Shown here: one piece after another, positions 16,888 to 40,332 of the stretch
Layout of the letters: every line of letters starts with the position of its first letter
Position numbering within the stretch: the stretch's first letter is position 1
Source: a phage
DNA: 64,000 nt
Sequence record: PZ445431.1
Strand: one strand, 5' to 3'
Program-made: the position numbers and the translations under genes
The notes under the pieces: model-generated
Seen by the model: the letters and a program-made list of their open reading frames with translations, nothing else
Told to the model about the DNA's origin: nothing
The model's database searches: none

Positions 16888-17770
16888 AGATTCATAAATT
16901 AGAGAACAGCGAGCCGATTACGCTGAGTGAGTTTAGTGATTCCTACTAGGATAGCTATTCCACTGAATAGAGTCGGTGAGTTTAGAATGATCACCTGTTA
17001 GAGTTCCGAGTCCAGTCCGGTATATCCGGCCAAGTGACTAGAGTAACGAATATAGGTTCGAGACTTCTTGTAAAACTCGGGAGCTGTCCCGAAATCTCGT
17101 AAACTCTTCTCTAGTTTATGTTAGTGGGGTGTCGAACTGACTTATGTGATAACACTGCCGTCCTAGTATAAACGGTAATATCAAACCGTAACTGGTGGAA
17201 GATGCAGGTTCGAATCCTGCGGTCGGAAAGAATCAGATAACTCGGGCTTATACCGGATAAGCATTCGCTGCTGGAGTACATACTATGACGGTTCAGGAGG
17301 TACGCCACCTGATCAGTATTAGGTTAGAATCGAAACAGCTAAACCACGAGGAAACCTGACGGCCTCAACCAAACTCGGAACTCGGGATCACTGCCTAGTG
17401 TGTGCCCCGTTTAACCTGAGACTAGGCATCCAGCTTCGCATCGAAAATCGGAGGTGCGATTCTAACAGACCGCGTGAATATGAGAGTGGGAAACGCTGAC
17501 ATGAGAGATGTCACTAATGGTGCCCAATAGTACAGGTAATTCGCGATAATTCCTGTTGAGCGGCAGCAGTAGGCTGGGAGTCATGACCTAAGCCTAACCG
17601 AGTTCTTCACATACGGAGAACATAACCACAAAGTCACCCTGACTTAAACTGGAAGATATTGTCTGACGGAAGGGCTGCAGAGCTTAATCTGAGGGGGCTG
17701 ACCCTACCTACCATCGGGTATCTTTAAGAGCTTTTTCGAGAGTTCTTAAAAATACCTAACAAAAGGAATC
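16888..17770 (+). ncRNA. candidate structured non-coding RNA region (no ORF >=60 aa on the sense strand)
   Basis: About 0.88 kb directly downstream of consensus promoter 16859-16887; contains tRNA-like T-arm GCAGGTTCGAATCCTGC (17204-17220) without a pairing acceptor stem and several short hairpins. Confidence 0.35.
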
Positions 17771-24978: not shown

Positions 24979-25084
24979 CCATATTCTGTGTAGAGTTAAG
25001 TAAACCGGTAGCCAACCAGCTATCATTGCTGATATCGAATTCAGTCACAGATACCATTTTTCATTAACAACTGAGGAAATAGAT

Positions 25085-25926: not shown

Positions 25927-26000
25927 ACATCCATAGCTCAATTGGTTAGAGCTACCGCCTCTTAAGCGGTAGGTTCTAGGTTCAAGTCCTTCATTGGAGA
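25927..26000 (+). tRNA. tRNA-Lys-like (anticodon CUU); acceptor/T stems imperfect
   Basis: Canonical D-arm GCTCAATTGGTTAGAGC and anticodon arm ACCGC-CTCTTAA-GCGGT; acceptor pairing poor by eye. Confidence 0.4.
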
Positions 26001-26010
26001 CCAAACAATT

Positions 26011-26084
26011 GCGGGTTAGATCTTTGGTAGAGATCGCTAGTCTCATAAGCTAGAAAGAGGTAGGTTCGATTCCTGCACCCGCTT
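26011..26084 (+). tRNA. tRNA with CAU anticodon (second copy)
   Basis: Acceptor GCGGGTT/CACCCGC region, anticodon arm CTAGT-CTCATAA-GCTAG, T-arm GTAGG-TTCGATT-CCTGC, encoded CCA. Confidence 0.6.
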
Positions 26085-26108
26085 CCAATTTAATAGAAGG
26101 ATTTCGAA

Positions 26109-26273
26109 ATGAAATTATTTCGTTTAAAAGTAAGTGATTTACGTTCTAGCAAAGATCGTAAGAAGTATCCACTAGCCCATTACGGTAAAGATGAAAACGA
26201 AGTGATGGCGGAATTTGGTATTAATCACCCTTACTTAAAAGTTTATTCTATTAAGGAAGTCTATGCTAATTAA
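26109..26273 (+). CDS. hypothetical small protein (54 aa)
   Basis: AAGGA RBS then ATG; not in track (<60 aa). Confidence 0.4.
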   Translation: MKLFRLKVSDLRSSKDRKKYPLAHYGKDENEVMAEFGINHPYLKVYSIKEVYAN

Positions 26274-26736
26274 TAAAGTTTTAGCTGCCTTAAACCTTCC
26301 TGATAACTTCATTATAGATGATAAGCTCATAAGAGCTTATATGAGCAAATATAACGAAATTTCAGGTAAAGAAGGTAAGTTAAAAACTTCAGAGTTTAGA
26401 TTCTGTTATCGAATGGCAGCCTTAAATCTCTTAAAATATAAAAGGGAGCATAAAATACCTATAACGGAAGGTTTTGTATATGTAATTGGTAATCCAGCAT
26501 GGCCAGGCATGTATAAAATAGGTATGACTATAGATGTGAATGAGAGGTTAACAAGTTATCAAACTTATTCACCTAATAGAGACTACAAGCTATACCATTT
26601 CAGATTTTCGTCGGATAAAAGACGTACAGAGAAAGAATTACATAATCTTCTTAAAGATTATAGAGTATCTGGAGAATGGTTTGAAGTACCTGTACTAGAT
26701 GCTTTTAAATTATTAGTAGAAAAATTGGATTGCTAG
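26263..26736 (+). CDS. T5orf172-domain (GIY-YIG-like) protein, putative homing endonuclease
   Basis: GFVYVIGNPAWPGMYKIGMTIDVNERL matches the T5orf172/GIY-YIG-like core; 3' end overlaps the next tRNA acceptor stem. Confidence 0.6.
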   Translation: MLINKVLAALNLPDNFIIDDKLIRAYMSKYNEISGKEGKLKTSEFRFCYRMAALNLLKYKREHKIPITEGFVYVIGNPAWPGMYKIGMTIDVNERLTSYQTYSPNRDYKLYHFRFSSDKRRTEKELHNLLKDYRVSGEWFEVPVLDAFKLLVEKLDC

Positions 26737-26801
26737 CTCAACTGGATAAGAGTAGCGGACCTTTAATCCGTCAGTTCTGGGTTCGAATCCCAGGCAATCC
26801 A
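26727..26801 (+). tRNA. tRNA, anticodon UUU by eye (Lys) with C at position 33
   Basis: Perfect acceptor GGATTGC/GCAATCC, T-arm CTGGG-TTCGAAT-CCCAG, encoded CCA. Confidence 0.55.
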
Positions 26802-26808
26802 CCAAATT

Positions 26809-26879
26809 GCTCGGTTAGTTTAATGGGAGAACCCCGTCTTTACACGGCGGTTGCGATAGTTCGATTCTATCACCGAGTA
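26809..26879 (+). tRNA. tRNA-like gene with apparent 6-nt anticodon loop (anticodon unresolved)
   Basis: Acceptor GCTCGGT/ACCGAGT, perfect T-arm GATAG-TTCGATT-CTATC, encoded CCA; only CCGT/ACGG pairs around loop CTTTAC. Confidence 0.45.
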
Positions 26880-26906
26880 CCACTCAACTAAAATAAGGAA
26901 TTGCAA

Positions 26907-27143
26907 ATGCAATTATCATCTAAAGTTCAAGGTTTCTTCGCACATGCAACAGCAGAATTTGCTATTAGCAAGGGTTGGGATTTTGAGCAAGAACTTTCTG
27001 AGTTCTATAAAGATATAGATATGAATACGCCATACATGGGACTCTCCACTGGTCAAGAGATCACAGAAGGCGATGTGTTCAAGGCAAGTCAAGGTGAGGT
27101 AACACCTAGTTTTGCCGCTTTTTTGGAGTGGCTTCACAATTAA
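26907..27143 (+). CDS. hypothetical protein (78 aa)
   Basis: AAGGAA RBS; second in-frame ATG chosen for spacing. Confidence 0.5.
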   Translation: MQLSSKVQGFFAHATAEFAISKGWDFEQELSEFYKDIDMNTPYMGLSTGQEITEGDVFKASQGEVTPSFAAFLEWLHN

Positions 27144-27252
27144 AGAAGAAGCTCCAGATGATGATGTATTTATGCAAAGCATGCACTCTGGGAGTTCTGA
27201 TATGTTATTTGTTAAAGATGTACGACATATCCAAGAAGTGGTAAAAACGCAG

Positions 27253-27281
27253 TTGCTTAATGCTTAATTTCTTGTTATAAT
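27253..27281 (+). promoter_or_regulatory. T5-type early promoter driving ORF-free/tRNA-like segment
   Basis: TTGCTT 27253-27258, TATAAT 27276-27281. Confidence 0.7.
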
Positions 27282-27284
27282 ATT

Positions 27285-27615
27285 TATATAAATTGATGCG
27301 AAAATAGCTGCCTAGATACCAGGTGTATGACGTCTACACTAGCAGAGCTACCGAAAAAGAGATCCTCAGGATAAACGTCGTAGCAAAATTAGTCTGGTAT
27401 CCATTAATTTAGTTCACTAAGGTATTAGCTCGACCTAGGACTGGCTGCCAAAAAGCACGATCCCTACGATTTGGGAGAAGTTCTAGATTAGTCCACTAGA
27501 TTCAGCGGCAACTGAATAGTGTATCGGGTTTGTGAAGAGCAGCTATTCTCTACTGGCTAATGTCTGAGGTTAGTACGCACACCGAGCTAATAGCCTTAGT
27601 AAACTTAAAGAATTT
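27285..27615 (+). ncRNA. candidate non-coding RNA (ORF-free segment downstream of consensus promoter)
   Basis: About 330 nt with no ORF >=60 aa after promoter 27253-27281; long-range complement GATACCAG (27308) / CTGGTATC (27394) and hairpin ATTCAG-CGGCAA-CTGAAT. Confidence 0.35.
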
Positions 27616-27688
27616 GGGCGAATAGTGTCAGCGGGAGCACACCAGACTTGCAAGTCTGGTAGGGAGGGTTCGAGTCTCTCTTTGTCCA
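27616..27688 (+). tRNA. tRNA-like gene with non-canonical anticodon loop (6 or 8 nt around TTGCAA)
   Basis: Acceptor GGGCGAA/TTTGTCC (two G-U), D-stem GTGT/ACAC, stem CCAGAC/GTCTGG, T-arm GAGGG-TTCGAGT-CTCTC, encoded CCA. Confidence 0.45.
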
Positions 27689-27706
27689 CCAAATTAAAAA
27701 GAATGC

Positions 27707-27780
27707 GCGCGATTGACGGAATAGGTATACGTGTCAGCCTTAGAAGTTGAATTTTGAGGGTTCGAATCCCTTGTCGCGCA
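27707..27780 (+). tRNA. tRNA, anticodon UAG by eye (Leu-type anticodon on a short-variable-arm body)
   Basis: Perfect acceptor GCGCGAT/GTCGCGC, anticodon arm TCAGC-CTTAGAA-GTTGA, T-arm GAGGG-TTCGAAT-CCCTT, A73, encoded CCA. Confidence 0.55.
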
Positions 27781-27908
27781 CCAAATTTGATGGTCAGAGT
27801 AAATTAAACCTACTATCTCGGTTGAGCTGTTTTAATGGATTCGAATCCCAGCGAGGCGTAACTGCCTGGCGTGATAGAGGCATCATTCCACTAACATTGG
27901 AAAAACTA

Positions 27909-28139
27909 ATGAAACGAAAATTAAAAAAGTCTTATATAATTAAGATAAATAAGCTACGAAGTAGGGCAAAAGGATGGCCACTTCGAATATTAATTGCGGA
28001 TAACCATATTAGATACCATGCGGAACAACATCATTACAAACAGTGGGAGTCATACTGTCGCTCAAAAGCAGGTCGTTTAGATGGATCTTATGAGCTTCTA
28101 TTTGGTAAGAAGCCTACTAGATTAGCTTTAGGTAAGTAA
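27909..28139 (+). CDS. hypothetical basic protein (76 aa)
   Basis: Internal ATG of track ORF 27747..28139; the upstream part of that ORF overlaps tRNA-like sequence. Confidence 0.35.
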   Translation: MKRKLKKSYIIKINKLRSRAKGWPLRILIADNHIRYHAEQHHYKQWESYCRSKAGRLDGSYELLFGKKPTRLALGK

Positions 28140-28144
28140 TACTT

Positions 28145-28235
28145 GGAAAAGCAAATAGACTGGCGACTAAACCCGATTGGAAATCGGTTGAGTAATAGCA
28201 ATATTGCCTTATGGGTTCAACTCCCATCTTTTCCG
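28145..28235 (+). tRNA. tRNA-Ser (anticodon GGA), type II
   Basis: Perfect acceptor GGAAAAG/CTTTTCC, anticodon arm CCCGA-TTGGAAA-TCGGT, long variable arm, T-arm ATGGG-TTCAACT-CCCAT, encoded CCA. Confidence 0.7.
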
Positions 28236-28253
28236 CCAAATATTGGAGTATAG

Positions 28254-28769
28254 ATGCTAACACAACAAGAATTAAAATCCGTGTTGTTATATAAACCAGA
28301 TACTGGAGAGTTTTTCTGGAAATATAGATCTGATTTAGATAGTCAATGGAATAGTAAATATGCTGGAACTAGGGCAGGATTTATTAATGAACTAGGCTAT
28401 TGGAAGATAACTCTAGGAAATACTAGCTGGTTAGCACATCGTCTAGCATTCTTATACATGACTGGGGAAATACCAGATCTAATTGACCACAAGGATCAAG
28501 ATAAGTCCAATACTAAATGGGATAACTTACGAATAGCCACTGTATCACAGAATCAGGCTAATGCTAAATTAAGGGTAGATAATACCTCTGGGTACAAAAA
28601 TGTAACTTGGCATAAGCAAAGAAATAAGTGGAAAGTAGAAGTACGTAAAGATGGCAAACTCCATTATGGTGGACTTTTTACAGAACTAGATAAAGCTGTA
28701 AATAAAGCTAATAATCTTAGACGTGAGTTATTCGGGGAATTTGCAGTATATGAAGAGTTTATGGGGTAG
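28254..28769 (+). CDS. HNH homing endonuclease with AP2-type DNA-binding domain
   Basis: Same architecture as 6957..7472 (ELK..LYKPDTG.F.W, IDHKDQDKSNTKWDNLR, AP2-like SGYKNVTWHK); stop lies inside the next tRNA acceptor stem. Confidence 0.8.
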   Translation: MLTQQELKSVLLYKPDTGEFFWKYRSDLDSQWNSKYAGTRAGFINELGYWKITLGNTSWLAHRLAFLYMTGEIPDLIDHKDQDKSNTKWDNLRIATVSQNQANAKLRVDNTSGYKNVTWHKQRNKWKVEVRKDGKLHYGGLFTELDKAVNKANNLRRELFGEFAVYEEFMG

Positions 28770-28856
28770 GTCAATCCAACGGCTGGCGCTGGACTCCGAC
28801 TTGAAATCGGTTGATCGTAGTGATACGGTGTAAGGGTTCGATCCCCTTACCTACCT
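28765..28856 (+). tRNA. tRNA-Ser (anticodon UGA), type II
   Basis: Perfect acceptor GGTAGGT/ACCTACC, anticodon loop CTTGAAA, long variable arm, T-arm AAGGG-TTCGATC-CCCTT, encoded CCA. Confidence 0.7.
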
Positions 28857-28879
28857 CCAATTAACTATAAGGAATCCTT

Positions 28880-29053
28880 ATGAGCAAAACAGCTACTGTA
28901 ACAATGAAGGATGGTACAAAATTTAAAGCATGTCTTCATGAAACAGATAATGGATGGAAGGCTTATTTGCCACACCTAGATTCCACTGGGTATGGAATGA
29001 CCCAACGTGAAGCTATTGTTGATGCTTTAAATGAGGCTTCCGCTGGTTTATAA
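28880..29053 (+). CDS. hypothetical small protein (57 aa)
   Basis: TAAGGAA RBS then ATG; not in track (<60 aa). Confidence 0.4.
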   Translation: MSKTATVTMKDGTKFKACLHETDNGWKAYLPHLDSTGYGMTQREAIVDALNEASAGL

Positions 29054-29060
29054 AAATTCT

Positions 29061-29191
29061 TGGAATATGCCGGAATTGGTAGACGGGACTGCCGAATAGG
29101 TTTACTAGGAACATCCACTCCTAGAAATATACCTTAAAAGCGGTTGAGTTAAATGGTATAACTCATGAAGGTTCAAGTCCTTCTATTCCTT
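29061..29191 (+). tRNA. tRNA-like element of abnormal length (about 131 nt, or 85 nt from alternative 5' end); possible insertion-containing or degenerate tRNA
   Basis: Leu-like D-arm TGCCGGAATTGGTAGACGGG near 5' end, perfect T-arm GAAGG-TTCAAGT-CCTTC at 3' end, acceptor candidates pair 6/7, no encoded CCA. Confidence 0.3.
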
Positions 29192-29312
29192 GATACATCA
29201 ATGGCTCAAAGTGTAACGGTGCTATTTGATGCTCTTGGCAAGACTTCCCCGACATGCGTTCGGGAGTAAGCTGCTAAGACTAGAGTAGAAGAGTTTCAAC
29301 AAGACAACGATA

Positions 29313-29384
29313 GCTCTTAAAGCATTGCTGGCGATGCAGTTGCCTTGTAAGCATCTGAACCGGGTTCGATTCCTAGTGGGAGCA
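29313..29384 (+). tRNA. tRNA-Thr (anticodon UGU)
   Basis: Acceptor GCTCTTA/TGGGAGC (two G-U), D-arm GCAT...ATGC, anticodon arm GTTGC-CTTGTAA-GCATC, T-loop TTCGATT, encoded CCA. Confidence 0.55.
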
Positions 29385-29403
29385 CCAAAATTAAAAAATT
29401 CAT

Positions 29404-29432
29404 TTGCCTTCTCTCTTATTTCTTGTTATTAT
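29404..29432 (+). promoter_or_regulatory. early promoter variant (TTGCCT-N17-TATTAT)
   Basis: -35 at 29404-29409, -10 at 29427-29432. Confidence 0.55.
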
Positions 29433-29462
29433 ATTTATATAAATTAATGAGAGGGAAACCAA

Positions 29463-29756
29463 ATGAAACGTTATCTTTCTGTTATGTTCCAAACTGGTGG
29501 TCAACGCTATACTTATGAATTTCCATCTTCTTGGAAGATCAAAGAAGGTGATCAAGTAGTAGTGTTAACACCGCGTGATGGTTTCAAGGTAGTAACGGTT
29601 AAGCAAGTATTTCCAAAAGATCACGAACCATCTAAGGCTATTCAGTACAAGATGATTCATGGTCTGGTACGAAAAGTACCTAGAACAGAAGTCGAAGTAG
29701 ATAAAACTGGGGAAGCTAAATACCAGTATACCTCTTACTTAGACGAGTTGTTATAA
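29463..29756 (+). CDS. hypothetical protein (97 aa)
   Basis: ATG directly after conserved leader AATTAATGAGAGGGAAACCAA. Confidence 0.55.
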   Translation: MKRYLSVMFQTGGQRYTYEFPSSWKIKEGDQVVVLTPRDGFKVVTVKQVFPKDHEPSKAIQYKMIHGLVRKVPRTEVEVDKTGEAKYQYTSYLDELL

Positions 29757-29962
29757 TGGGAATTACTTTCACAGAAAAGATTATGGGCAATGGTGTTATG
29801 ATCATTACCGCATGGGATGGTAATCAGTGGTGTAGTGTTTCAGGTATTAAGCCTGAAGAACAAACACTAGAAAATATCTCAAAGATTAAGCGAAGAATGG
29901 CAGAACGTGCACGACTTCCAGGTGCGCCTAGAAATGGTAAACGTTCTGCAATTAAATGTTAA
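29756..29962 (+). CDS. hypothetical protein (68 aa)
   Basis: ATAATG-coupled ORF. Confidence 0.5.
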   Translation: MGITFTEKIMGNGVMIITAWDGNQWCSVSGIKPEEQTLENISKIKRRMAERARLPGAPRNGKRSAIKC

Positions 29963-29963
29963 T

Positions 29964-30037
29964 GCTTCGGTAGCTTAGCGATCTAAAGCACTCGGCTGAT
30001 AACCGAGAGATCGGGGGTTTAAATCCCTCCCGGAGTA
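29964..30037 (+). tRNA. tRNA-Ile (anticodon GAU)
   Basis: Acceptor GCTTCGG/CCGGAGT (two G-U), anticodon arm CTCGG-CTGATAA-CCGAG, T-arm GGGGG-TTTAAAT-CCCTC, encoded CCA. Confidence 0.65.
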
Positions 30038-30058
30038 CCAAATTTAGGAAGTAAGACT

Positions 30059-30133
30059 ATGCGTCCAGGAAAGTTTAAAAAAAAAAAAAAGCTAATTGGT
30101 CTAAAGAGTATAAAGAATATTTACTTAGTCTAG
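30059..30133 (+). CDS. possible mini-ORF (24 aa) containing an A14 homopolymer
   Basis: ATG after TAGGAAG; translation MRPGKFKKKKKLIGLKSIKNIYLV; coding status doubtful. Confidence 0.2.
   Translation: MRPGKFKKKKKLIGLKSIKNIYLV
30077..30090. repeat. A14 homopolymeric tract
   Basis: 14 consecutive A between tRNA-Ile and the third CAU tRNA. Confidence 0.95.
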
Positions 30134-30144
30134 TAAAACATAAT

Positions 30145-30217
30145 AGTTAGTTGGCAGAGTGGTTATGCACCTCCTTCATACGGAGCGACTACAGTGGTTC
30201 AAATCCACTACTAACTA
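30145..30217 (+). tRNA. tRNA with CAU anticodon (third copy)
   Basis: Perfect acceptor AGTTAGT/ACTAACT, anticodon loop TTCATAC, T-arm AGTGG-TTCAAAT-CCACT, encoded CCA. Confidence 0.6.
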
Positions 30218-30258
30218 CCATAAAAAAGAGCTAGAGATAGCTAAATATAGGAGCAAGT

Positions 30259-30453
30259 GTGTTAACTGTTAAAATAATGTCTGCAAATGGTGGTGAAGAA
30301 ATTCATGATGGTAATAGCGTAGGATTTAATCCTAAAAATAAGAGTATTCATGTCTCGGGATTAGATCAAGCCATATTCCTAAAAGAGGATGAAGTCGCCT
30401 ACGTTATGAATCAGAACGGTAAAACAGTTTCTGTTTACTACGGTAAGCTGTAA
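30259..30453 (+). CDS. hypothetical protein (64 aa)
   Basis: GTG/ATG start after TAGGAGC. Confidence 0.45.
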   Translation: MLTVKIMSANGGEEIHDGNSVGFNPKNKSIHVSGLDQAIFLKEDEVAYVMNQNGKTVSVYYGKL

Positions 30454-30820
30454 AGAACAGAGGATCAGGTCATTGTACCAGATCCTGCTGAGAAGAGAGT
30501 CCACATTCTATAAATGGCCGGGCGTGACAGCAGGAAGTAGACTGCAACTCCATGCTATCCAGGAGTATAAATGTAGAAGCTAAGACTTTAGATAGCCATT
30601 GTCTTAGCGTGAGCAATCACGTAGTTGCAACAGACCTGGAAGATCGCAACGTTAAAATCAAAGCTCCTGTGCTTATTAAACTGAATGGGACTATCAATCC
30701 ACAAGCCGGACTACGAGCGATTATCGGGTATTCACTTAATAAGCAAGCCTGCCTTCCAGTTTTTATCTTGCTTCTGGGTTAACAAAAAGCTGAGCCAAAT
30801 TCTAACATCAGGGAGATCTA

Positions 30821-31189
30821 ATGAAAGCATATCAAAGTCTTAAGTCTGGCGTAATTAACATTGTTCATAACAATCAGATCATTCAACTATATTCTAAAGA
30901 TGGTGAACTTAAACAGAAAGTTCTAGTCGAAGATCTAGAAGGTATCACACCTCACTTTGACCCTGAGGCCTTTCGCATTGTAGATGTGGAAGTGGTTCCT
31001 CAAGTCGAGGGTGGTCAGCACCTAAATGTCAATGTGTTAAGCCGTGATCAGCTTTTGGATGCACAGAAACATCCTGAAAAATATCCTCAGTTGACCATCC
31101 GTGTCTCTGGCTATGCTGTTCGATTTAACGCATTGACGCGTGAACAACAGAACGACGTTATTAGTCGTACATTTACTCAGGCGATATAA
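30821..31189 (+). CDS. grcA: GrcA/YfiD-like autonomous glycyl-radical cofactor (pyruvate formate-lyase C-terminal domain homologue)
   Basis: C-terminal [60 protein letters not shown] is near-identical to the glycyl-radical domain of E. coli GrcA/PflB (RVSGYAV motif); host-like codon usage. Confidence 0.85.
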
Positions 31190-31270
31190 TGGGGTTTGGA
31201 TACGATTTCTCCCAGCTACGCAAGGTAGTCGAGCAAACTCCATTTATCTCCCAAGTTTTAGGAGAAATGT

Positions 31271-31570
31271 GTGGATCGAGCATTAAGACGCCATCACCGG
31301 CAACGTGTGAAAAACAATCGCAAAAAGTATTGGACAGTCTTCCCACATGAAGAAAGTCCTAAGCGGTTAGGCATTATCACTACCACTCCTTGCATCTGTT
31401 CTTGTTGGATGTGTGGGAATCCTCGCAAATACTATAAGAATAGTAAAGCAGGCATGAAAATCTCGGAGATTAAAAAGATGGATGCAATGATTATGGGCAT
31501 CACCTTTACAGGTGGTATCTCTGATGAATTCGACGGTTTTGTAACTCAGGATATTGTCGAAATTATCTAA
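31271..31570 (+). CDS. hypothetical Cys-rich protein (99 aa)
   Basis: GTG start 8 nt after TAGGAG; CxCxC...C cluster. Confidence 0.45.
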   Translation: MDRALRRHHRQRVKNNRKKYWTVFPHEESPKRLGIITTTPCICSCWMCGNPRKYYKNSKAGMKISEIKKMDAMIMGITFTGGISDEFDGFVTQDIVEII

Positions 31571-31579
31571 TTAATAATA

Positions 31580-31617
31580 AACCCCAGCTATTGAATAGGT
31601 AGTCTGGGGTTTTCTTG
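31580..31617 (+). terminator. rho-independent terminator
   Basis: ACCCCAG ... CTGGGGT stem followed by TTTCTTG. Confidence 0.65.
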
Positions 31618-31634
31618 TATGTAGGATTTTCGAA

Positions 31635-31820
31635 ATGAAAATTTTTAAAGTGAACTATAGCGGCCTGTGGTTAGGTGGTACAGCTATTGTCGTTGCAGAA
31701 ACTGCAGAAGAAGCAATCGAACTGACTAGAAACCATAGAAGTTCTATAGAATTCGAGGATGTGACAGTAGAAGAACTCCCGAGCAGTGGGGTAGTATACA
31801 ACAACAACGGAGATTACTGA
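31635..31820 (+). CDS. hypothetical protein (61 aa)
   Basis: ORF with weak RBS. Confidence 0.4.
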   Translation: MKIFKVNYSGLWLGGTAIVVAETAEEAIELTRNHRSSIEFEDVTVEELPSSGVVYNNNGDY

Positions 31821-31878
31821 TGTTATATTTTGAAGTTCGCCCACATTAAGTTAATTTAAAAGACTTAATGGAGGTAAT

Positions 31879-32274
31879 ATGAGCCGTACATATCGTAAAC
31901 AATCTGGTGATCGTCACTGGCGTGATGCACATCGTTCTACTTATAATTTTCATAGCACTAATATCCGTATTCCGTATACCTACACGGATAGGGATGGTAA
32001 GCAGTGGAAGTATTATCAAGTTCGATCCAATGAAGCATGGGCTAAAACTTGGGATGAAATTGAGAAGGAGATTCAGGAAAATATCATCCGTAACGAGAAG
32101 AAAGATGGGCACTGGTGGGATTCTGTTAGTAGGAATGTTAAGTGGCATTCTAACAAAATGGTTCGTCAGGGAAACCGTCGCGAACTTCATCGTGTGATGA
32201 AAGATCCAGAAAATTACGACTATAATCGCGATCATGATCTGCGTAAGCGTGGGTTATGGTGGTGCTACGACTAA
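31879..32274 (+). CDS. hypothetical basic Trp/His-rich protein (131 aa)
   Basis: GGAGG RBS; antisense ORF 31846..32235 judged spurious. Confidence 0.5.
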   Translation: MSRTYRKQSGDRHWRDAHRSTYNFHSTNIRIPYTYTDRDGKQWKYYQVRSNEAWAKTWDEIEKEIQENIIRNEKKDGHWWDSVSRNVKWHSNKMVRQGNRRELHRVMKDPENYDYNRDHDLRKRGLWWCYD

Positions 32275-32291
32275 TTTCGTAAATAATTCAT

Positions 32292-32320
32292 TTGCTAAAA
32301 CCCTCTCCTTTTGATATAAT
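32292..32320 (+). promoter_or_regulatory. T5-type early promoter
   Basis: TTGCTA 32292-32297, TATAAT 32315-32320. Confidence 0.7.
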
Positions 32321-32350
32321 ATTTATATAAATTGATGAGAGGGCTTTGAA

Positions 32351-32623
32351 ATGAAAGAAGCAGAAATTAATGAAATGGCTAGAATATTCATCGTTTCCTA
32401 TATGCAAGGCAGTTGCAATAGTTTATTCGAGTCTGCTATAGTATTTCAGGAAATGTTAGCCGAGAAAGGCGTACATATGGAAGATACTGAAATTGAAGAT
32501 CTTCTAATGGAAACTTGTAGTAGTGCTGAAGTCTTCCAGTGTGGTAACTGTAATTGGTGGTGTCCAGAGCATGATCGTTCTGAAGAAGGTTCCTACTGTT
32601 CCGATTGTGAAGGAGAAGAATAA
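32351..32623 (+). CDS. hypothetical acidic protein with C-terminal CxxC...CxxC zinc ribbon
   Basis: ATG after conserved leader; QCGNCNWWC...YCSDCEGEE. Confidence 0.55.
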   Translation: MKEAEINEMARIFIVSYMQGSCNSLFESAIVFQEMLAEKGVHMEDTEIEDLLMETCSSAEVFQCGNCNWWCPEHDRSEEGSYCSDCEGEE

Positions 32624-32922
32624 TGAATAAGTTTATTATTGCTCTAGTAATTTCAGCAGTTAGTTTCGGTTCTCTGGCATCTACCAAAGTTTCTATGAAA
32701 AATGGTAATGTTAAAGTTCAGCAGAATGGCATTACCACCGAATATGGTAAAGTACGTGATGTAAAAGAACGTAATGGCAAAGTAGAAATATATACTAATA
32801 AAAACTTCTCTACTCCGGCTGTTACTGTTAGTAAACGTGGTGAAATCACTACTCAACGTACTAATAGTTCTGATTCTTTTACTTGCCGTTATGACTGCGG
32901 CTTTGAAGGTGAAGATGAGTAA
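32623..32922 (+). CDS. secreted protein (signal peptide)
   Basis: MNKFIIALVISAVSFGSLAS signal peptide; ATAATG coupling. Confidence 0.55.
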   Translation: MNKFIIALVISAVSFGSLASTKVSMKNGNVKVQQNGITTEYGKVRDVKERNGKVEIYTNKNFSTPAVTVSKRGEITTQRTNSSDSFTCRYDCGFEGEDE

Positions 32923-33334
32923 TTTAGACCCTAGAATTAAACATGCAGTCGAAGAAATCCAAGATCAGATAGATGAGGACTTCACTGTTTGGTCAAGATT
33001 TGGCAATGGTGAAGGCTGTCAGCTTTATAGCATGAAAATGGGCATCTCGATTGAACTTAGTATCAATCCAGAGGGCAACGTAGAAGCCCAACCCATGTTC
33101 AGTGTTCCAGGCTTCTCTGGATTTGTTATGGGCATGAAACTATGTCTACCAAATAAACATCTTTACCGTGTTATCTGTCAGCTAGAAACAATTAAACATT
33201 TCTTGCCAGAAGATAACATTAATGACTACTATCATGAAGTTGTAGCAGCTTACATGATGAAAGAACGCAAACGTCGGAGAGAAGAACGTGAAAGAGCTAA
33301 ATCTCAACAGTCTAGTACAGATTCCAGCAACTGA
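32915..33334 (+). CDS. hypothetical protein (about 139 aa)
   Basis: Internal ATG 32915 overlapping upstream stop (ATGAGTAA); track start 32837 would overlap 85 nt. Confidence 0.5.
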   Translation: MSNLDPRIKHAVEEIQDQIDEDFTVWSRFGNGEGCQLYSMKMGISIELSINPEGNVEAQPMFSVPGFSGFVMGMKLCLPNKHLYRVICQLETIKHFLPEDNINDYYHEVVAAYMMKERKRRREERERAKSQQSSTDSSN

Positions 33335-33581
33335 TGCTGTACTAGAATATCTTAGAAAGGATCATGTTAAATTCTGGACTGATTATAGCTACGAGCATAA
33401 CTCAGATTTAGCTACTGATTTTGCAAATAAACGAATAGCTGAGTATACAGATCCTAGAGTTAAGAATGGTGTGATTACTTTACCACTTTGGGATGTGATG
33501 GAAAAGTTTGGTAAAGATTTGTGCCCAGGTTGTGTACCATTGTTTGTTACTATTCTAATTGATGAAAAGGATCTTAAATGA
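33288..33581 (+). CDS. hypothetical protein (97 aa)
   Basis: ORF overlapping upstream gene by 47 nt. Confidence 0.45.
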   Translation: MKELNLNSLVQIPATDAVLEYLRKDHVKFWTDYSYEHNSDLATDFANKRIAEYTDPRVKNGVITLPLWDVMEKFGKDLCPGCVPLFVTILIDEKDLK

Positions 33582-33862
33582 TTATCTCTCCATTTGCTTT
33601 GTGGTTTGTTATTGGTGCAGTTGTCGCGATTTACAGCCTGATTGATGATCTGTATATCTCTAAAAATAAAGATGTTATTCTTTATGTTATAAACAAATAT
33701 CGTCCACCAGAATTAGCAGAATTTGACAATGAAAAGATGTTCAAATTCATTATGTCAGGTATGCTTATCATGGACACCTTGTTCGGGCCAGTAGCTACTT
33801 ACTTCTTCTTCCGTAAAACTCGTAAGATGAAAAAGTTTCGCGCTGAAATGCAGAGCAAGTAA
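33578..33862 (+). CDS. hypothetical membrane protein (94 aa)
   Basis: Two hydrophobic helices; ATGA coupling. Confidence 0.5.
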   Translation: MIISPFALWFVIGAVVAIYSLIDDLYISKNKDVILYVINKYRPPELAEFDNEKMFKFIMSGMLIMDTLFGPVATYFFFRKTRKMKKFRAEMQSK

Positions 33863-33979
33863 AGAACTCGCGTAGGACCGAGTTGCGTCACCTGCAACTG
33901 TTACGGATAAGGGAGTCGTGCCCCTTTAGTGCGGTAAGTGGTGAGTTGGTCGCTGACCTCAACTTTAACTGGAGATATC

Positions 33980-34327
33980 ATGAGCTTTATTTTATTCAGT
34001 GTAGCAGCATGGTTTATTATTGGTTTAGGCTATGCTATTGCAGTTATTCGTCATCTGGATGAATATTCTGCTGAATGGTTTATTAAGTACCTACGTTTAG
34101 ACGATCGAGAACACGAGTTCGACAGTGCTGAGGAAAGACAGGCTGTCCAGTCAATGACTCCCAAAGAATGCTTGCTTTACATGCGTGTAATTGGTTTCTT
34201 TGGACTGTTGGTAGTGGGGCCGCTAGGTCTTACTATTGCTCCCTACAAAGAAGTTGTTGACGACATTAAACTATGGAGAACCGCTGGATCGCTACGTCGT
34301 GCTAGAGAATTAAGTAAACAAGAGTGA
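33980..34327 (+). CDS. hypothetical membrane protein (about 115 aa)
   Basis: Start at ATG 33980 after CTGGAGA; two predicted TM segments. Confidence 0.5.
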   Translation: MSFILFSVAAWFIIGLGYAIAVIRHLDEYSAEWFIKYLRLDDREHEFDSAEERQAVQSMTPKECLLYMRVIGFFGLLVVGPLGLTIAPYKEVVDDIKLWRTAGSLRRARELSKQE

Positions 34328-34361
34328 TGATAATCACCTCCTAGCAAGAATAATAATGACA

Positions 34362-34396
34362 AAGCCCAGCCTGCAATTTTGCGACTGGGCTATTTT
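34362..34396 (+). terminator. rho-independent terminator
   Basis: AGCCCAG ... CTGGGCT stem followed by ATTTTTG. Confidence 0.65.
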
Positions 34397-34412
34397 TGTA
34401 ATAAAATTTCAG

Positions 34413-34441
34413 TTGCTCAGATGCCACAAGTATTGTATAAT
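34413..34441 (+). promoter_or_regulatory. T5-type early promoter
   Basis: TTGCTC 34413-34418, TATAAT 34436-34441. Confidence 0.65.
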
Positions 34442-34472
34442 ATGTTTATAGATTGAGGCAAAAGGATAATTT

Positions 34473-35171
34473 ATGAGAATCATTTCAAAGTTCAATGATG
34501 TATACGATTTGCAGAATAGTTTATTTGATCCAGATCGTGTCTGGGAGCGTAAAACTGAAGAGCTGCGAGTAAAAGTAACTGACGATGTAGAAAAGAATAT
34601 CGTTCATAATCGTCAGGTGTTTCGTGAGGGTTCCTTATCCTTCCGTGGTGACTTCGAATACTCAGTAAATCCACTGTTTATTGCAGGCGAAGTTTACTGG
34701 TTACATGAACTGTCCTGCTGGCATCCAGCATTCAGTTTCAAAACGTTCAACATCGATGCTGTGTTCGATAAAATGGAAGAAATGGGATTACATGCCCGTT
34801 CTTACTTACTAGATAAGAATCGTGGTGATGTTCGTGAAACCATGCGAGATATGTTGGTTGAAGCAAAACCTAAAGCAGAACGTATCTTATCTGAACTGCG
34901 CGTACCAATTGCATATGTGAAAGGTATTAAGAAGAACGATAACGATGATGTTCGTAACTTCGTAATTCAGACAAACATTCGTTTCCATCAGTCAGGTATT
35001 CCGTGGCAGGAAATTGAAAGTAACTTATACCGTTTACACCAAGTTCTCGAACAGTATATCTTCGGTGTACTAGGAACTGGTGAGCCTGATATGATTACCG
35101 TATCAGATAAAGACAGGTTAGCAGCACATGGATTTGATACAAAAACTTCTTTCAGGAATATGGCAAGGTAA
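34473..35171 (+). CDS. hypothetical protein (232 aa)
   Basis: ATG after AAAAGGATAA and consensus promoter; no motif recognised. Confidence 0.6.
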   Translation: MRIISKFNDVYDLQNSLFDPDRVWERKTEELRVKVTDDVEKNIVHNRQVFREGSLSFRGDFEYSVNPLFIAGEVYWLHELSCWHPAFSFKTFNIDAVFDKMEEMGLHARSYLLDKNRGDVRETMRDMLVEAKPKAERILSELRVPIAYVKGIKKNDNDDVRNFVIQTNIRFHQSGIPWQEIESNLYRLHQVLEQYIFGVLGTGEPDMITVSDKDRLAAHGFDTKTSFRNMAR

Positions 35172-35577
35172 GTGGTATATCCTGGGAGCTGGTCTTGCGA
35201 TAGGTATCGGATTCGGTGCTTATCACTTAGTTAATAAGGTTGAGACTCTAGCAGGTGATCTTGCAGTTGCGACTAAAAAGATCTCCACTCTAGAGACTTC
35301 TCTTAATAAAGTGAAAACTGAGAGTGAACTTCGTGAGACTCGAATGAACCAGTATTTCACAATGAATAATATTTCGCAAGCAGATCTAGACAAAAAGATT
35401 AAGCAGTTAGATAAAGCTCTTAGTCGTCAAGATGTTATCGCTGCAAAGCCTGGATTGGTAACATTAATTGCTAAAAAGCAGAATAAAGAGTTCGAGGAAA
35501 GATTAGCGTGTTTAACTGGAAACTTGGAGTACTGCTCGCAGCCGCAATCACAATCACAGGCTGTGCAGAAGAAATAA
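35128..35577 (+). CDS. membrane-anchored coiled-coil protein, i-spanin-like
   Basis: N-terminal TM helix (WYILGAGLAIGIGFGAYHLV) then coiled coil; 3' end overlapped by a lipoprotein gene in another frame. Confidence 0.4.
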   Translation: MDLIQKLLSGIWQGKWYILGAGLAIGIGFGAYHLVNKVETLAGDLAVATKKISTLETSLNKVKTESELRETRMNQYFTMNNISQADLDKKIKQLDKALSRQDVIAAKPGLVTLIAKKQNKEFEERLACLTGNLEYCSQPQSQSQAVQKK

Positions 35578-35861
35578 AACCGGAGCCATCCCATGAGTTA
35601 AAGCAAGCTCATATAGATTGGCCTAAAGGACTTCAGCCGTGTAGCTTTGATTTCAAATTCGAAAAGAAATTAGCTACAAATGGTGAAGATGGCGTAGTAG
35701 TTGTTGTACCTTACAAAGATTGGAATGCAAAAGCAAAATGCGAGGAAGCAGTTTACTCTTACATTTCACGACTGACCGGTATGGTTTGCTTCTATCGTCA
35801 AGATTTACAAGAAAAACGTTGCTTAGTTTATTATCCACCCATTACAAATAGGAAAGATTAA
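35508..35861 (+). CDS. lipoprotein, o-spanin-like (embedded/overlapping arrangement)
   Basis: Signal peptide with lipobox LAAAITITGC; overlaps 3' end of preceding membrane protein. Confidence 0.4.
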   Translation: MFNWKLGVLLAAAITITGCAEEIKPEPSHELKQAHIDWPKGLQPCSFDFKFEKKLATNGEDGVVVVVPYKDWNAKAKCEEAVYSYISRLTGMVCFYRQDLQEKRCLVYYPPITNRKD

Positions 35862-36613
35862 TGTCAGTATTAGTCGGTTTACACGGTGAGGCTGGTGCGG
35901 GAAAAGATACCGTTGCAGAATTAATGATTGACTGGTGTAATGACACGTTCCCAACGTGTTTATCCCGTCGTTACAGTTTTGCTAAACCCGTTTACGAACT
36001 TGCATCCGTAATCCTCGGGGTAACTCCAGAGTTTCTGGGAGAGCGCAGGGGGAAAGAGATTGACCAATGGTTTACAGTCACACAATCTCAATTGGAGCGA
36101 GCTAGAGACATATGGTTTAAGTATGGTATCGATAAGTTTGAGGACTTCTCGTACGTTTGGCCTATTTTTGAAGGAAAATACCTTGATCCTCAGCAGTTAA
36201 TTGGGCAAGCTGATGATGCGCTGTATAGCGTGTTTATCTCCCCAAGAAAAATGCTACAGCTTGTAGGTACTGAGTTAGGAAGGCAGCTGGTGCATGAACG
36301 CATTTGGCTCATAATTCTGGAGCAATCCATCGATAAAGACGACCCAGACGTCGCAATCGTTACCGATGTGCGTTTTCCCAATGAGGGAGAGCTAATCATG
36401 GAAACCAATACTCTAGATATGGATTCCATACTTATTAAGGTTGAATCTGGTATTACTAATAAGTATCGCATCGAGACAGATCATCCGTCTGAAAGCGGTA
36501 TTCCTGAAAAATACATTTCTCATAAATTTGAGAATACCTTCAACGGACTTGATGCACTTCGTACCGATGTGTACCACTTCTGTGACTTAGAGCTAGAACC
36601 ACTAGTTGGATAA
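35861..36613 (+). CDS. dnk: deoxynucleoside monophosphate kinase
   Basis: P-loop GLHGEAGAGKDT at N-terminus, 250 aa, matching T5 dNMP kinase size and layout. Confidence 0.7.
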   Translation: MSVLVGLHGEAGAGKDTVAELMIDWCNDTFPTCLSRRYSFAKPVYELASVILGVTPEFLGERRGKEIDQWFTVTQSQLERARDIWFKYGIDKFEDFSYVWPIFEGKYLDPQQLIGQADDALYSVFISPRKMLQLVGTELGRQLVHERIWLIILEQSIDKDDPDVAIVTDVRFPNEGELIMETNTLDMDSILIKVESGITNKYRIETDHPSESGIPEKYISHKFENTFNGLDALRTDVYHFCDLELEPLVG

Positions 36614-36625
36614 TTAAGGATCACT

Positions 36626-37225
36626 ATGACTAACAAGAAAGAAGAAAAGACTAACCTGTTTCACACTGTTCGCCAATCTAATGAGTATACCTTTTTCTTT
36701 GACGAAGAGTTAGGCTCACCGGATGAGTATCGTGATCTATCAATGATACTGATGCAGGCTGGTGAAGATGATGAAATTAATCTGATGATTAATGGGCCTG
36801 GTGGTTACGTTGATACTGCTGCACAGCTATCTAACCTAATAGCTAACTGTCGTGGAACGGTTATTGGGCACCTGCTCGGTCCTAGTGCTTCTGCTTACTG
36901 CACAATCTTCCTATCTTGCCACGGTTGGGTTGTACATCCACATGCTACGCTTATGGGACATACGTTCTCTGGCGGATTCTGCGAGAAAGGTCAAGAAATC
37001 AAGAAAGCCTATGAATCCTACAACCAGTTTGTAGAAGATATGATGCTAGATATTTACTTTCCGTTCTTCTCTGTCGACGAAATCGAGGACATGGTAAAAG
37101 AGAATAAGAATATCTATCTCAACAGCAAAGAAATCAATAAGCGTATTGAAATTTTGGCGAATTATCGTAAAGAGCAGTGTAGTAAAGCTCAAGCCCCACA
37201 TCCAGAAGAACATGGAGAAGTGTAA
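36626..37225 (+). CDS. ClpP-like serine peptidase (S14 family-like)
   Basis: INLMINGPGGYVDTA (ClpP INSPGGVITAG), GPSASAYCTIFL (GQAASMG) and LMGHTFSGG (MIHQPLGG) blocks collinear with ClpP. Confidence 0.55.
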   Translation: MTNKKEEKTNLFHTVRQSNEYTFFFDEELGSPDEYRDLSMILMQAGEDDEINLMINGPGGYVDTAAQLSNLIANCRGTVIGHLLGPSASAYCTIFLSCHGWVVHPHATLMGHTFSGGFCEKGQEIKKAYESYNQFVEDMMLDIYFPFFSVDEIEDMVKENKNIYLNSKEINKRIEILANYRKEQCSKAQAPHPEEHGEV

Positions 37226-37233
37226 GTAGTTTT

Positions 37234-37267
37234 AAGCCAGAGTTTAACGACTCTGGCTTTTCTTTTG
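37234..37267 (+). terminator. rho-independent terminator
   Basis: AAGCCAGAG ... CTCTGGCTT stem followed by TTCTTTTG. Confidence 0.7.
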
Positions 37268-37327
37268 CCTAAAATTCTTCTTGACAACGACAAAAAATTG
37301 TGCTCCAGAAGTGATCTTAAAAAACAC

Positions 37328-37357
37328 ATTGTAATTTTACTCTAGAATTAGTATAAT
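37328..37357 (+). promoter_or_regulatory. candidate promoter upstream of holin (TTGTAA-N18-TATAAT)
   Basis: -10 TATAAT at 37352-37357. Confidence 0.4.
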
Positions 37358-37381
37358 GGTAGTGGTTAGAGGAGGTTACAA

Positions 37382-38038
37382 GTGGAAAAGTTTATACAAC
37401 TATTAACGATACTGCTACAAGAAGCGAAAGATCCAGCTTCACTACTAAAACGTCTGCTAACTATCTTAGTTGCTGTCATTATTTTCTTGTTTGTAAGTAA
37501 CACTAGCGAGGTGATGTCATTTTTAAAGACTTTCTCCACGTCTTCGGTTTTACAGGATGTTCAAACCCAAAGGATAGATAACTTTCCTAATGTAGCACGA
37601 GAAAAGAGTATGGTTCTTTTCTCCCAGACTGGTGCGGATGCCGTTTTTGTAGTAAAGTATAAACCAGATGCTATAAATGATTATTCAAACATTATTGCAT
37701 GGGAAAGCAATGCGCAATTGGATAGGGCTGACTTGGCCGATAAAGCAGTAAATAAGACGTCTGAACTTTATAGACGTCACCTGGAAGGCTTTAACTACGC
37801 TGCGGATTTAAGTGTAAAAGTAAATAAATATACGGGGTCAAATATACCAGCGTTTAAGAACATTACTTTTAATTACGTCTACACTTGTCCATATTTCAAC
37901 CTAAATAATATCTATGCTGGATACATAGGTATTGCATGGAAGGATAAACCCGTAGATACAGCTGATTCGGAACAATTTAATGAGTACTTAGCAAAGCTCT
38001 GTTCCCCACAACGGAGATCATTAGGTAGATCTATATGA
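37382..38038 (+). CDS. holin (T5-type, large)
   Basis: GTG start after AGAGGAGG; N-terminal TM helix; immediately upstream of and overlapping the endolysin gene. Confidence 0.6.
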   Translation: MEKFIQLLTILLQEAKDPASLLKRLLTILVAVIIFLFVSNTSEVMSFLKTFSTSSVLQDVQTQRIDNFPNVAREKSMVLFSQTGADAVFVVKYKPDAINDYSNIIAWESNAQLDRADLADKAVNKTSELYRRHLEGFNYAADLSVKVNKYTGSNIPAFKNITFNYVYTCPYFNLNNIYAGYIGIAWKDKPVDTADSEQFNEYLAKLCSPQRRSLGRSI

Positions 38039-38448: not shown

Positions 38449-38458
38449 TAATAAATCA

Positions 38459-38482
38459 AGGCGGGGTAATTCCCGCCTTTTA
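38459..38482 (+). terminator. rho-independent terminator
   Basis: GGCGGG-GTAATT-CCCGCC followed by TTTT. Confidence 0.7.
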
Positions 38483-40301: not shown

Positions 40302-40332
40302 ATATTTATAAATTGATGAGAGGAGTATCACA

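What the first reader, a model, noticed from the sequence alone, without database searches (positions are those of the whole stretch)
27253..27615. Promoter-driven 330 nt ORF-free segment upstream of the tRNA-like genes: second ncRNA candidate
Consensus promoter 27253-27281 is followed by about 330 nt with no ORF, containing a long-range complementary pair (GATACCAG at about 27308 and CTGGTATC at about 27394) and a 6 bp hairpin (ATTCAG-CGGCAA-CTGAAT), before the tRNA-like gene at 27616. It may be a structured leader or an independent small RNA.
Basis: seen in the sequence. Interest (0 to 1): 0.5.

Follow-up and report, generated by a model that had tools for sequence, protein, structure and literature searches.

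The report
Phage T5 stable RNA "RNA2H" homologue
This segment is the local copy of a unit already annotated in phage T5 (early promoter P13b driving "RNA2H", a stable RNA of unknown function, just upstream of tRNA-Ala), preceded here by an extra ~110-nt leader domain; the RNA is real and intricately folded, but it is not a new discovery.

Summary
The window is the T5-like Escherichia phage TrudiRoth. The promoter is 56/56 identical to the annotated T5 promoter P13b. Window 27423-27595 is the orthologue of T5 rna2H, annotated in GenBank for T5 and Salmonella phage 5 as a "stable RNA with unknown functions". It lies directly upstream of tRNA-Ala and tRNA-Leu, as in T5.

Forty-six distinct homologues from T5-like and Klebsiella Sugarlandvirus phages support a compact fold: a long terminal stalk, five further helices and two pseudoknots. 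In that fold 96.8% of cells are paired and 27 pairs show compensatory change, against 8 or fewer in slid controls.

That domain is absent from T5 and present in only 85 phage records, and has little support of its own.

If the T5-annotated ends are the real mature ends, they lie 2 bp apart inside a ~24-bp duplex. That geometry suggests excision by RNase III (inferred).

T5 mutants whose deletions span rna2H are viable, so the RNA is accessory. Its function in trans remains unknown. No Rfam family matches.

Verdict: a real structured RNA that is already known. Interest is low to moderate.

The parts
27243..27298 (+). Early sigma-70 promoter, orthologue of T5 P13b. -35 TTGCTT 27253-58; extended -10 TG 27273-74; -10 TATAAT 27276-81. 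The transcription start is inferred near 27288.
   Evidence: 56/56 identical to the annotated T5 'promoter P13b' feature. Salmonella phage S114 annotates the same site as 'P13b-like' and phage 5 as P13b. Activity was not tested here.
27289..27411 (+). 5' leader domain that is absent from T5.
   Evidence: In T5 a 17-nt mini-hairpin occupies this position. The domain is found in 85 phage records, always at this position, at 94-100% identity. It is unannotated even in the expert-annotated phage 5 record. Structural support is thin: one compensatory pair (C-G / U-G / U-A) and one G-U to G-C change. MFE z-score is -1.1. It has no paralogue in the window or in the T5 tRNA region.
27409..27422 (+). 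5' strand of the precursor stalk (P0 and its extension). It pairs with 27594-27608.
   Evidence: Inverted repeat I1. T5-like phages have 7 bp, a C.A mismatch, then 4-7 bp. Sugarlandvirus has 14 contiguous pairs, reached through compensatory changes.
27423..27595 (+). RNA2H orthologue. The ends are mapped from the T5 rna2H annotation.
   Evidence: Alignment to T5 rna2H. Covariance model R1 scores 206 bits with a single copy in the window. Many conserved G-U pairs fit only the + strand.
27438..27449 (+). 5' single strand that forms two pseudoknots. PK1: GGACU 27438-42 pairs with the H3 loop AGUCC 27490-94. PK2: UGCC 27446-49 pairs with the H4 loop GGCA 27507-10.
   Evidence: PK1 is 100% paired and 4 of its 5 pairs show compensatory change, including C-G / U-A / U-G within the Klebsiella phages. 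RNAalifold found PK1 independently. PK2 is 99-100% paired with one compensatory pair, G-C to A-U.
27594..27608 (+). 3' strand of the precursor stalk. The spacer then runs to the tRNA at 27615.
27616..27691 (+). Downstream tRNA-Ala(UGC) orthologue, co-transcribed by inference. It carries one extra G in the anticodon loop.
   Evidence: ARAGORN and Rfam. 97% identical to T5 tRNA-Ala. The insertion is seen only in TrudiRoth among the loci held.

Best explanation
The region is the start of an early tRNA transcription unit of a T5-like phage. Host RNA polymerase starts at the P13b promoter (about 27288). It transcribes a 5' leader domain (27289-27411), then the orthologue of T5 stable RNA RNA2H (27423-27595), then tRNA-Ala and tRNA-Leu.

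RNA2H folds into a compact body. A three-hairpin domain (H2, H3, H4) is closed by P2 and P3, and a long hairpin H5 lies beside it. A 5' strand pairs with the loops of H3 and H4, forming two pseudoknots. The body sits on a terminal stalk of about 24 bp made by its own ends and flanks.

Inferred step 1: the RNA is cut out of the precursor within that stalk, most likely by host RNase III. If the T5-annotated ends are the real mature ends, they are staggered by 2 bp with 3' overhangs on both products. The downstream tRNAs would then be matured by the normal tRNA pathway.

Inferred step 2, weakly supported: the released RNA persists because its ends are paired. It acts in trans as a non-essential accessory RNA, most plausibly by binding or titrating a host protein during early infection, for host takeover or counter-defence.
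For: Identity and synteny. The window is 100% identical to phage TrudiRoth over 27200-27700. T5 (NC_005859) annotates promoter P13b, then misc_RNA rna2H 'stable RNA with unknown functions', then tRNA-Ala, then tRNA-Leu. Phage 5 (AJ604531) annotates the same order. The promoter is 56/56 identical, and the first 113 nt of RNA2H are 98% identical to T5.

Structure. On 33 MAFFT-aligned distinct sequences, 95.5% of cells are paired and 26 pairs show change on both sides, against 6 or fewer for slid controls. On 46 distinct sequences aligned to the model, the figures are 96.8% and 27 against 8 or fewer. In both, 0 of 500 shuffles reach the observed covariation score.

Strand. Numerous conserved G-U pairs would be A.C mismatches on the minus strand.

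Stalk. Searches show the extended duplex and its compensatory changes in Sugarlandvirus. The mapped ends, U27423 and C27595, lie 2 bp apart in that duplex.

Family habit. All other annotated T5 stable RNAs also pair their 5' and 3' ends and carry short 3' tails.

Accessory status. T5Mos (deletion 30661-38625) and T5-123 (deletion 29191-32442) span rna2H (31808-31979 in NC_005859) and are viable (PMC11464382). This assumes the paper uses the same coordinate system. One IMG/VR phage genome carries a natural internal deletion of RNA2H.
Against: No expression or end-mapping data were available here. I could not establish whether the ends annotated in T5 were measured or predicted. No Rfam family matches, so no function can be borrowed by homology. 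The held literature contains nothing on RNA2H. The number of independent evolutionary events behind the covariation is small: essentially three lineages (T5-type H5, window-type H5 and Sugarlandvirus) plus a few singletons. The GCC 3' tail and the GCCA and ACCA tails of sister RNAs fit RNase P with 3' trimming and CCA repair as well as they fit RNase III. The trans-acting protein-binding role is a guess from context only.
Confidence: 0.6

Rival explanations
1. A purely cis-acting leader. The structured segment exists only to organise transcription, stability or processing of the downstream tRNA-Ala/tRNA-Leu precursor, for example as a 5' protective domain and processing stalk. On this view the excised piece has no function of its own.
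For: It lies about 20 nt upstream of tRNA-Ala and directly behind its own promoter in both T5-like and Sugarlandvirus phages, although the upstream genes differ. It is dispensable.
Against: T5 and phage 5 records call it a stable RNA. Two covarying pseudoknots and invariant single-stranded motifs (CCAAAAA-CAC, AGUGUAU) are far more than a processing stalk needs. Some phages carry about 225-380 bp inserted between RNA2H and the tRNA. No + strand terminator or other expression platform follows it.
Confidence: 0.2
2. A mimic of the tRNA acceptor end. The 5' end is made by RNase P. The 3' end is trimmed to GCC and completed to GCCA by the CCA-adding enzyme. The RNA works by presenting an acceptor-like end to a tRNA-directed enzyme, such as a processing enzyme or a tRNA-targeting defence nuclease.
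For: The mature RNA would have a 10-bp terminal helix followed by G-C-C. Sister T5 RNAs end in GCCA (RNAI) and ACCA (RNA3). The locus is embedded in a tRNA cluster whose tRNAs are known to counter defence systems (PMC11464382; PMC10644984).
Against: In the precursor, the CC pairs with GG in an invariant, extended duplex. That favours a double-strand-specific nuclease. There is no T-arm or cloverleaf: ARAGORN and the Rfam tRNA model find nothing in 27288-27615. There is no G3:U70 or other recognisable identity element (read from the sequence).
Confidence: 0.15
3. The 5' domain (27289-27411) is itself an independent small RNA with its own function, so the region holds two ncRNAs.
For: It is very highly conserved (94-100%) in the 85 records that carry it. 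It has a closing helix and an inner helix with one compensatory change.
Against: It is absent from most relatives, including T5. It is unannotated in the expert phage 5 record. Its fold is no better than that of shuffled sequence (z = -1.1). It has almost no variation with which to test structure.
Confidence: 0.12
4. The region encodes a small protein, or the functional transcript is on the minus strand.
For: Several automated annotations place short 'hypothetical protein' CDSs over it on either strand.
Against: Only 29-aa and 40-aa ORFs with non-ATG starts are present. Homologues differ by 1-nt and 22-26-nt indels and by paired compensatory substitutions. The conserved G-U pairs exclude the minus strand.
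Confidence: 0.02

Closest known systems
Bacteriophage T5 rna2H ('RNA2H', misc_RNA T5s04, NC_005859 31808-31979) and phage 5 rna2H (AJ604531)
   Same: Orthologous sequence. Same promoter (P13b), same downstream tRNA-Ala and tRNA-Leu, same length class (172-173 nt) and same fold.
   Different: The window has the alternative H5 allele, with a UGGCUAAU apical loop. That allele is shared with Epseptimavirus and Sugarlandvirus, not with T5. The window also has a 112-nt leader insertion that T5 lacks but phage 5 has.
Other T5 stable RNAs (RNAI, RNAIII, RNAIV, RNA1, RNA2, RNA3)
   Same: They are embedded in the same tRNA cluster, have unknown function, and pair their 5' and 3' ends with a short 3' tail.
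   Different: No sequence similarity to RNA2H. RNA1, RNA2 and RNA3 are annotated as tRNA-like, whereas RNA2H has no T-arm.
Phage T4 species 1 and species 2 RNAs (rnaC, rnaD). Cited from my own knowledge, not tested here.
   Same: Small stable RNAs of long-unknown function, co-transcribed with phage tRNAs and released by host processing nucleases. Species 1 is a reported RNase III substrate.
   Different: A different phage family, with no sequence relationship shown. I did not compare the structures.
RNase III processing stalks of rRNA operons and of phage T7 early RNAs. Cited from established knowledge.
   Same: Flanking sequences pair into a duplex of 20 bp or more, and the mature ends lie inside it with a 2-nt 3' stagger.
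   Different: The excised product here is a 173-nt pseudoknotted RNA rather than an rRNA or mRNA. Cleavage by RNase III is inferred, not shown.
Bacterial Y RNAs (YrlA) and other RNAs built as a stalk plus a structured module
   Same: A long stem formed by the two ends carries a compact structured module. Such RNAs occur in enterobacteria and some phages.
   Different: No Rfam hit to any Y RNA family at E up to 10. There is no tRNA-like domain and no recognisable Ro-binding motif.

Membership tests
T5-type RNA2H stable RNA | Sequence homology to T5 rna2H | tested here: met
   89.5% identity over 287 nt including the tRNA. The first 113 nt of rna2H are 98% identical. The covariance model scores 206 bits.
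T5-type RNA2H stable RNA | Synteny: P13b promoter upstream, tRNA-Ala(UGC) then tRNA-Leu(UAG) downstream | tested here: met
T5-type RNA2H stable RNA | Shared secondary structure supported by covariation | tested here: met
   96.8% of cells paired. 27 pairs show compensatory change against 8 or fewer in slid controls.
T5-type RNA2H stable RNA | Accumulates as a discrete stable RNA in infected cells | not testable with these tools
   This rests only on the wording of the GenBank annotations of T5 and phage 5.
Sigma-70 early promoter of T5 (P13b) | -35 and -10 hexamers with 17-nt spacing, and identity to the annotated promoter | tested here: met
   TTGCTT-17-TATAAT with a TG extension. 56/56 identical to T5 P13b. 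The generic consensus scan missed it because the -35 matches at 3 of 6 positions.
tRNA or tRNA-like RNA | Cloverleaf with a T-arm, or a match to the tRNA covariance model | tested here: not met
   ARAGORN and Rfam RF00005 find nothing between 27288 and 27615.
Any curated Rfam family (riboswitch, ribozyme, 6S, Y RNA, tmRNA, RNase P, ROOL, GOLLD and others) | Covariance-model match | tested here: not met
   No hit at gathering score. Nothing credible at E up to 10 within 27290-27615.
Riboswitch or attenuator-type cis-regulatory leader | An expression platform (terminator or SD sequestration) downstream of the structured domain | tested here: not met
   No + strand terminator-like site in 26000-29000. 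The downstream gene is a tRNA, not an ORF.
RNase III processing substrate | A duplex of about 20 bp or more with cleavage sites staggered by 2 nt | tested here: inconclusive
   The duplex and the stagger are present if the T5-annotated ends are real. Cleavage itself cannot be tested here.

The most novel reading that the evidence does not exclude
RNA2H is a trans-acting counter-defence or host-takeover RNA. On this reading it is a compact, double-pseudoknotted decoy, released from the early tRNA transcript, that binds and neutralises a host RNA-directed enzyme such as a tRNA-targeting defence nuclease or an RNA-processing factor. The lineage-specific 5' domain and the swappable H2 and H5 arms would tune that activity between hosts. 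This would finally give a function to a T5 'stable RNA' that its GenBank annotation still lists as having unknown functions.
Probability: 0.15. Interest if true: 0.75.

Novelty: already known. Interest (0 to 1): 0.3.

Why it matters
The gene itself is not new. T5 and phage 5 records already annotate it, and it occurs in about 500 sequenced T5-like and Sugarlandvirus phages. This analysis adds three things.

- A covariation-supported secondary structure: stalk, P2, P3, H2-H5 and two pseudoknots.
- A concrete processing hypothesis: RNase III cleavage in a ~24-bp stalk.
- The observation that most modern annotations, including TrudiRoth's, omit the gene or cover it with spurious CDSs.

I found no stated function for the T5 stable RNAs. 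They sit in a tRNA cluster now known to counter PARIS and retron defences. A defined fold makes targeted mutagenesis and partner pull-downs feasible. That is a modest but real step towards a testable question.

Tried and rejected
- **Rfam.** Searches at gathering score and at E up to 10 found only tRNAs.
- **Wider homologue search.** Pattern scans of IMG/VR, metagenome contigs and GTDB genomes for the conserved motifs returned only T5-like and Sugarlandvirus loci. The other pattern matches, including all five bacterial and archaeal ones, failed the covariance model. The family therefore seems confined to enterobacterial Demerecviridae.
- **Paralogues.** The model finds a single copy in the window.
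- **Origin of the 5' domain.** It has no similarity to other T5 stable RNAs, the T5 tRNA region or the rest of the window. It occupies only one place per phage record. An IMG/VR scan added nothing.
- **Single-sequence folding.** It gives a different interior from the comparative model and only weak z-scores, so it was not used as evidence.
- **Literature.** Searches for RNA2H, T5 stable RNAs and T5 non-coding RNAs found nothing specific. The Glukhov 2018 deletion paper is not held.
- **Rejected readings.** Protein coding, a minus-strand RNA, a CRISPR-repeat mimic (the S114-type H2 apex CCCC...GGGG only superficially recalls the type I-E repeat as I remember it; judged by eye, not tested), and a tRNA-Ala acceptor mimic (no G3:U70).
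- **Shared short motifs.** GCUGCC and AUUAGUC occur in both the 5' domain and RNA2H, but I estimate this to be within chance for sequences of this length.

Full report
**What is at the coordinates**

- -35 TTGCTT at 27253-58, a 17-nt spacer with a TG extension, and -10 TATAAT at 27276-81.
- The hairpin ATTCAG-CGGCAA-CTGAAT at 27500-17.
- A tRNA gene at 27616.

No ORF longer than 40 aa overlaps 27282-27615.

Taken alone, the two pairings are not remarkable. In 58% of dinucleotide shuffles there is a perfect inverted repeat of 8 bp or more. MFE z-scores are only about -2.6 on both strands.

**Where the window comes from and what is annotated there**

Window 27200-27700 is 100% identical to Escherichia phage TrudiRoth, an Epseptimavirus in the Demerecviridae. 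More than 500 T5-like phage records match it. TrudiRoth's own annotation leaves the interval empty.

The expert annotation of T5 (NC_005859) does not. It has promoter P13b, then misc_RNA rna2H ('RNA2H, stable RNA with unknown functions', 172 nt), then tRNA-Ala(UGC), then tRNA-Leu(UAG). Salmonella phage 5 (AJ604531) has the same series.

Pairwise alignment with T5 shows four things.
- The promoter is identical over 56 of 56 bases.
- The first 113 nt of rna2H are 98% identical.
- rna2H maps to window 27423-27595.
- The window has 112 extra nucleotides (27299-27410) where T5 has a 17-nt mini-hairpin.

**Two domains, not one**

blastn shows that the region is modular.
- The 5' part occurs in only 85 records, always at this position, at 94-100% identity.
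- The RNA2H part occurs in about 500 records, and its 3' core reaches Klebsiella Sugarlandvirus phages.

The 6-bp hairpin is helix H4 of RNA2H.

**Structure of RNA2H**

I collected homologues from IMG/VR, the phage collection and metagenomes. I proposed a structure by comparing the window, T5, S114 and the Klebsiella phages.

Window coordinates of the model:

| Element | Coordinates |
|---|---|
| P1 | 27423-32 / 27583-92 |
| P3 | 27433-36 / 27526-29 |
| P2 | 27455-58 / 27519-22 |
| H2 (arm of variable length) | 27461-64 / 27473-76 |
| H3 | 27482-86 / 27496-500 |
| H4 | 27501-05 / 27512-16 |
| H5 | 27532-82 |
| PK1 | GGACU 27438-42 with the H3 loop AGUCC 27490-94 |
| PK2 | UGCC 27446-49 with the H4 loop GGCA 27507-10 |

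Pair counts:

| Alignment | Distinct sequences | Cells paired | Pairs with change on both sides | Best slid control |
|---|---|---|---|---|
| MAFFT (A3) | 33 | 95.5% | 26 | 6 |
| Model-based (A5) | 46 | 96.8% | 27 | 8 |

In both alignments, 0 of 500 shuffles reach the observed covariation score.

PK1 is 100% paired, and 4 of its 5 pairs covary. That includes C-G, U-A and U-G at a single position within the Klebsiella phages. RNAalifold recovered PK1 on its own.

H5 exists as two very different alleles, T5-type and window-type. Both keep the same helix columns, and up to three different Watson-Crick pairs occur per position.

In Sugarlandvirus, H3 and H4 are replaced by CGGAG/CUCCG and ACGC/GCGU, shifted by one or two columns. 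These rows are scored as unpaired even though the hairpins are plainly there.

Many conserved G-U pairs fix the + strand as the RNA strand.

One caveat applies. The covariation comes from few lineages, so the number of independent events is small.

**Precursor stalk and processing**

The flanks of RNA2H pair beyond P1. Window 27409-22 pairs with 27594-608. In T5-like phages this is 7 bp, a C.A mismatch, then 4-7 bp. In Sugarlandvirus it is 14 uninterrupted pairs, reached through compensatory changes.

Together with the bulged G27593 and P1, this gives a duplex of about 24 bp. The ends annotated for T5 rna2H map to U27423 and C27595. They are offset by 2 bp with 3' overhangs on both products, which is the geometry left by RNase III.

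This is an inference. I could not establish whether the annotated ends were measured.

The alternative is RNase P, followed by 3' trimming and CCA repair. It is suggested by the GCC tail and by the GCCA and ACCA tails of sister T5 RNAs. It remains open.

**The 5' domain**

This domain is an expansion of the leader hairpin. It has an outer helix (27289-98 / 27402-11) and an inner helix (27315-22 / 27394-401).

Support for structure is limited to one compensatory pair (C-G / U-G / U-A) and one G-U to G-C change among ten sequences. Its fold is no better than that of shuffled sequence. It has no paralogues. The phage 5 annotators left it unannotated.

I treat it as a lineage-specific leader domain. 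There is a modest chance that it is a separate small RNA.

**Function**

No Rfam family matches. The held literature says nothing about RNA2H.

T5 mutants T5Mos and T5-123 carry deletions that span rna2H and still grow (PMC11464382). This assumes the paper's coordinates are those of NC_005859. One natural phage genome has an internal deletion of RNA2H, between two copies of GCTCGA. The RNA is therefore accessory.

The family is confined to enterobacterial T5-like and Sugarlandvirus phages in every collection scanned.

My best reading has several steps, and I rate them separately.
- It is the P13b/RNA2H unit: about 0.95.
- The fold is essentially as modelled: about 0.8.
- It is excised by RNase III: about 0.5.
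- It has a trans-acting protein-binding or decoy role: about 0.3.

The main rival is a purely cis role for the tRNA transcript.

**Verdict**

It is not a new class.

Its function is still unknown, and the structural model given here makes it testable. Interest is therefore low to moderate.

Noticed in passing
window 27616-27691: The tRNA-Ala(UGC) orthologue carries one extra G after the anticodon. This turns the anticodon arm into a perfect 18-nt palindrome, CCAGACTTGCAAGTCTGG. It gives either an 8-nt loop or a 7-bp stem with a UGCA tetraloop, and ARAGORN calls it 'tRNA-???'. Seven other loci with this tRNA allele have the normal 7-nt loop. It may be a disabled or altered tRNA, or a frameshift-suppressor-like variant.
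   Followed up: partly
window 24984-25056, 29059-29202, 29203-29297: Homologues of three further T5 'stable RNAs of unknown function' are present: RNA3 (97% identity), RNA1 (94%) and RNAI (91%). None is annotated in the TrudiRoth record.
   Followed up: partly
window 25934-25990 (junction): Compared with GenBank MZ501109 (TrudiRoth), the window lacks 922 bp lying between two tRNA-Lys(CUU) copies: a tRNA-Gly and three small ORFs. This looks like a collapse or deletion between direct repeats.
   Followed up: partly
window 29387-29451, 32311-32339, 40273-40320, 42774-42843: There are further P13b-like promoter sequences, including the shared initial transcribed motif ATAAATTGATG. They probably belong to the T5 early promoter family.
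   Followed up: no
window about 28765-28859: TrudiRoth's record annotates a tRNA-Ser(TCA) here, just after the homing-endonuclease ORF. Neither ARAGORN nor the Rfam tRNA model reports it in the window. Conversely, Rfam alone reports a weak tRNA at 17157-17228 (29.3 bits).
   Followed up: no
window 27508-27514 with 27525-27533: RNAalifold proposes an alternative helix, GCAACUG with CGGGUUUGY. It can form in all sequences but shows only wobble-type changes. It is mutually exclusive with PK2, the 3' strand of H4, and P3. It could be an alternative conformer.
   Followed up: partly
L040 (IMGVR_UViG_2706796640_000001) 2244-2297; L056 (Klebsiella phage vB_Kpn_3) 1382-1581: L040 carries a natural internal deletion of RNA2H between two copies of GCTCGA, leaving only the stalk. 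vB_Kpn_3 has a chimeric RNA2H, with a Sugarlandvirus 5' half and a T5-like 3' half, which breaks several P1 and P3 pairs.
   Followed up: partly
window 27311-27323, minus strand: A terminator-like hairpin followed by a T-run lies on the minus strand inside the 5' leader domain. The count is within chance expectation for the region.
   Followed up: no
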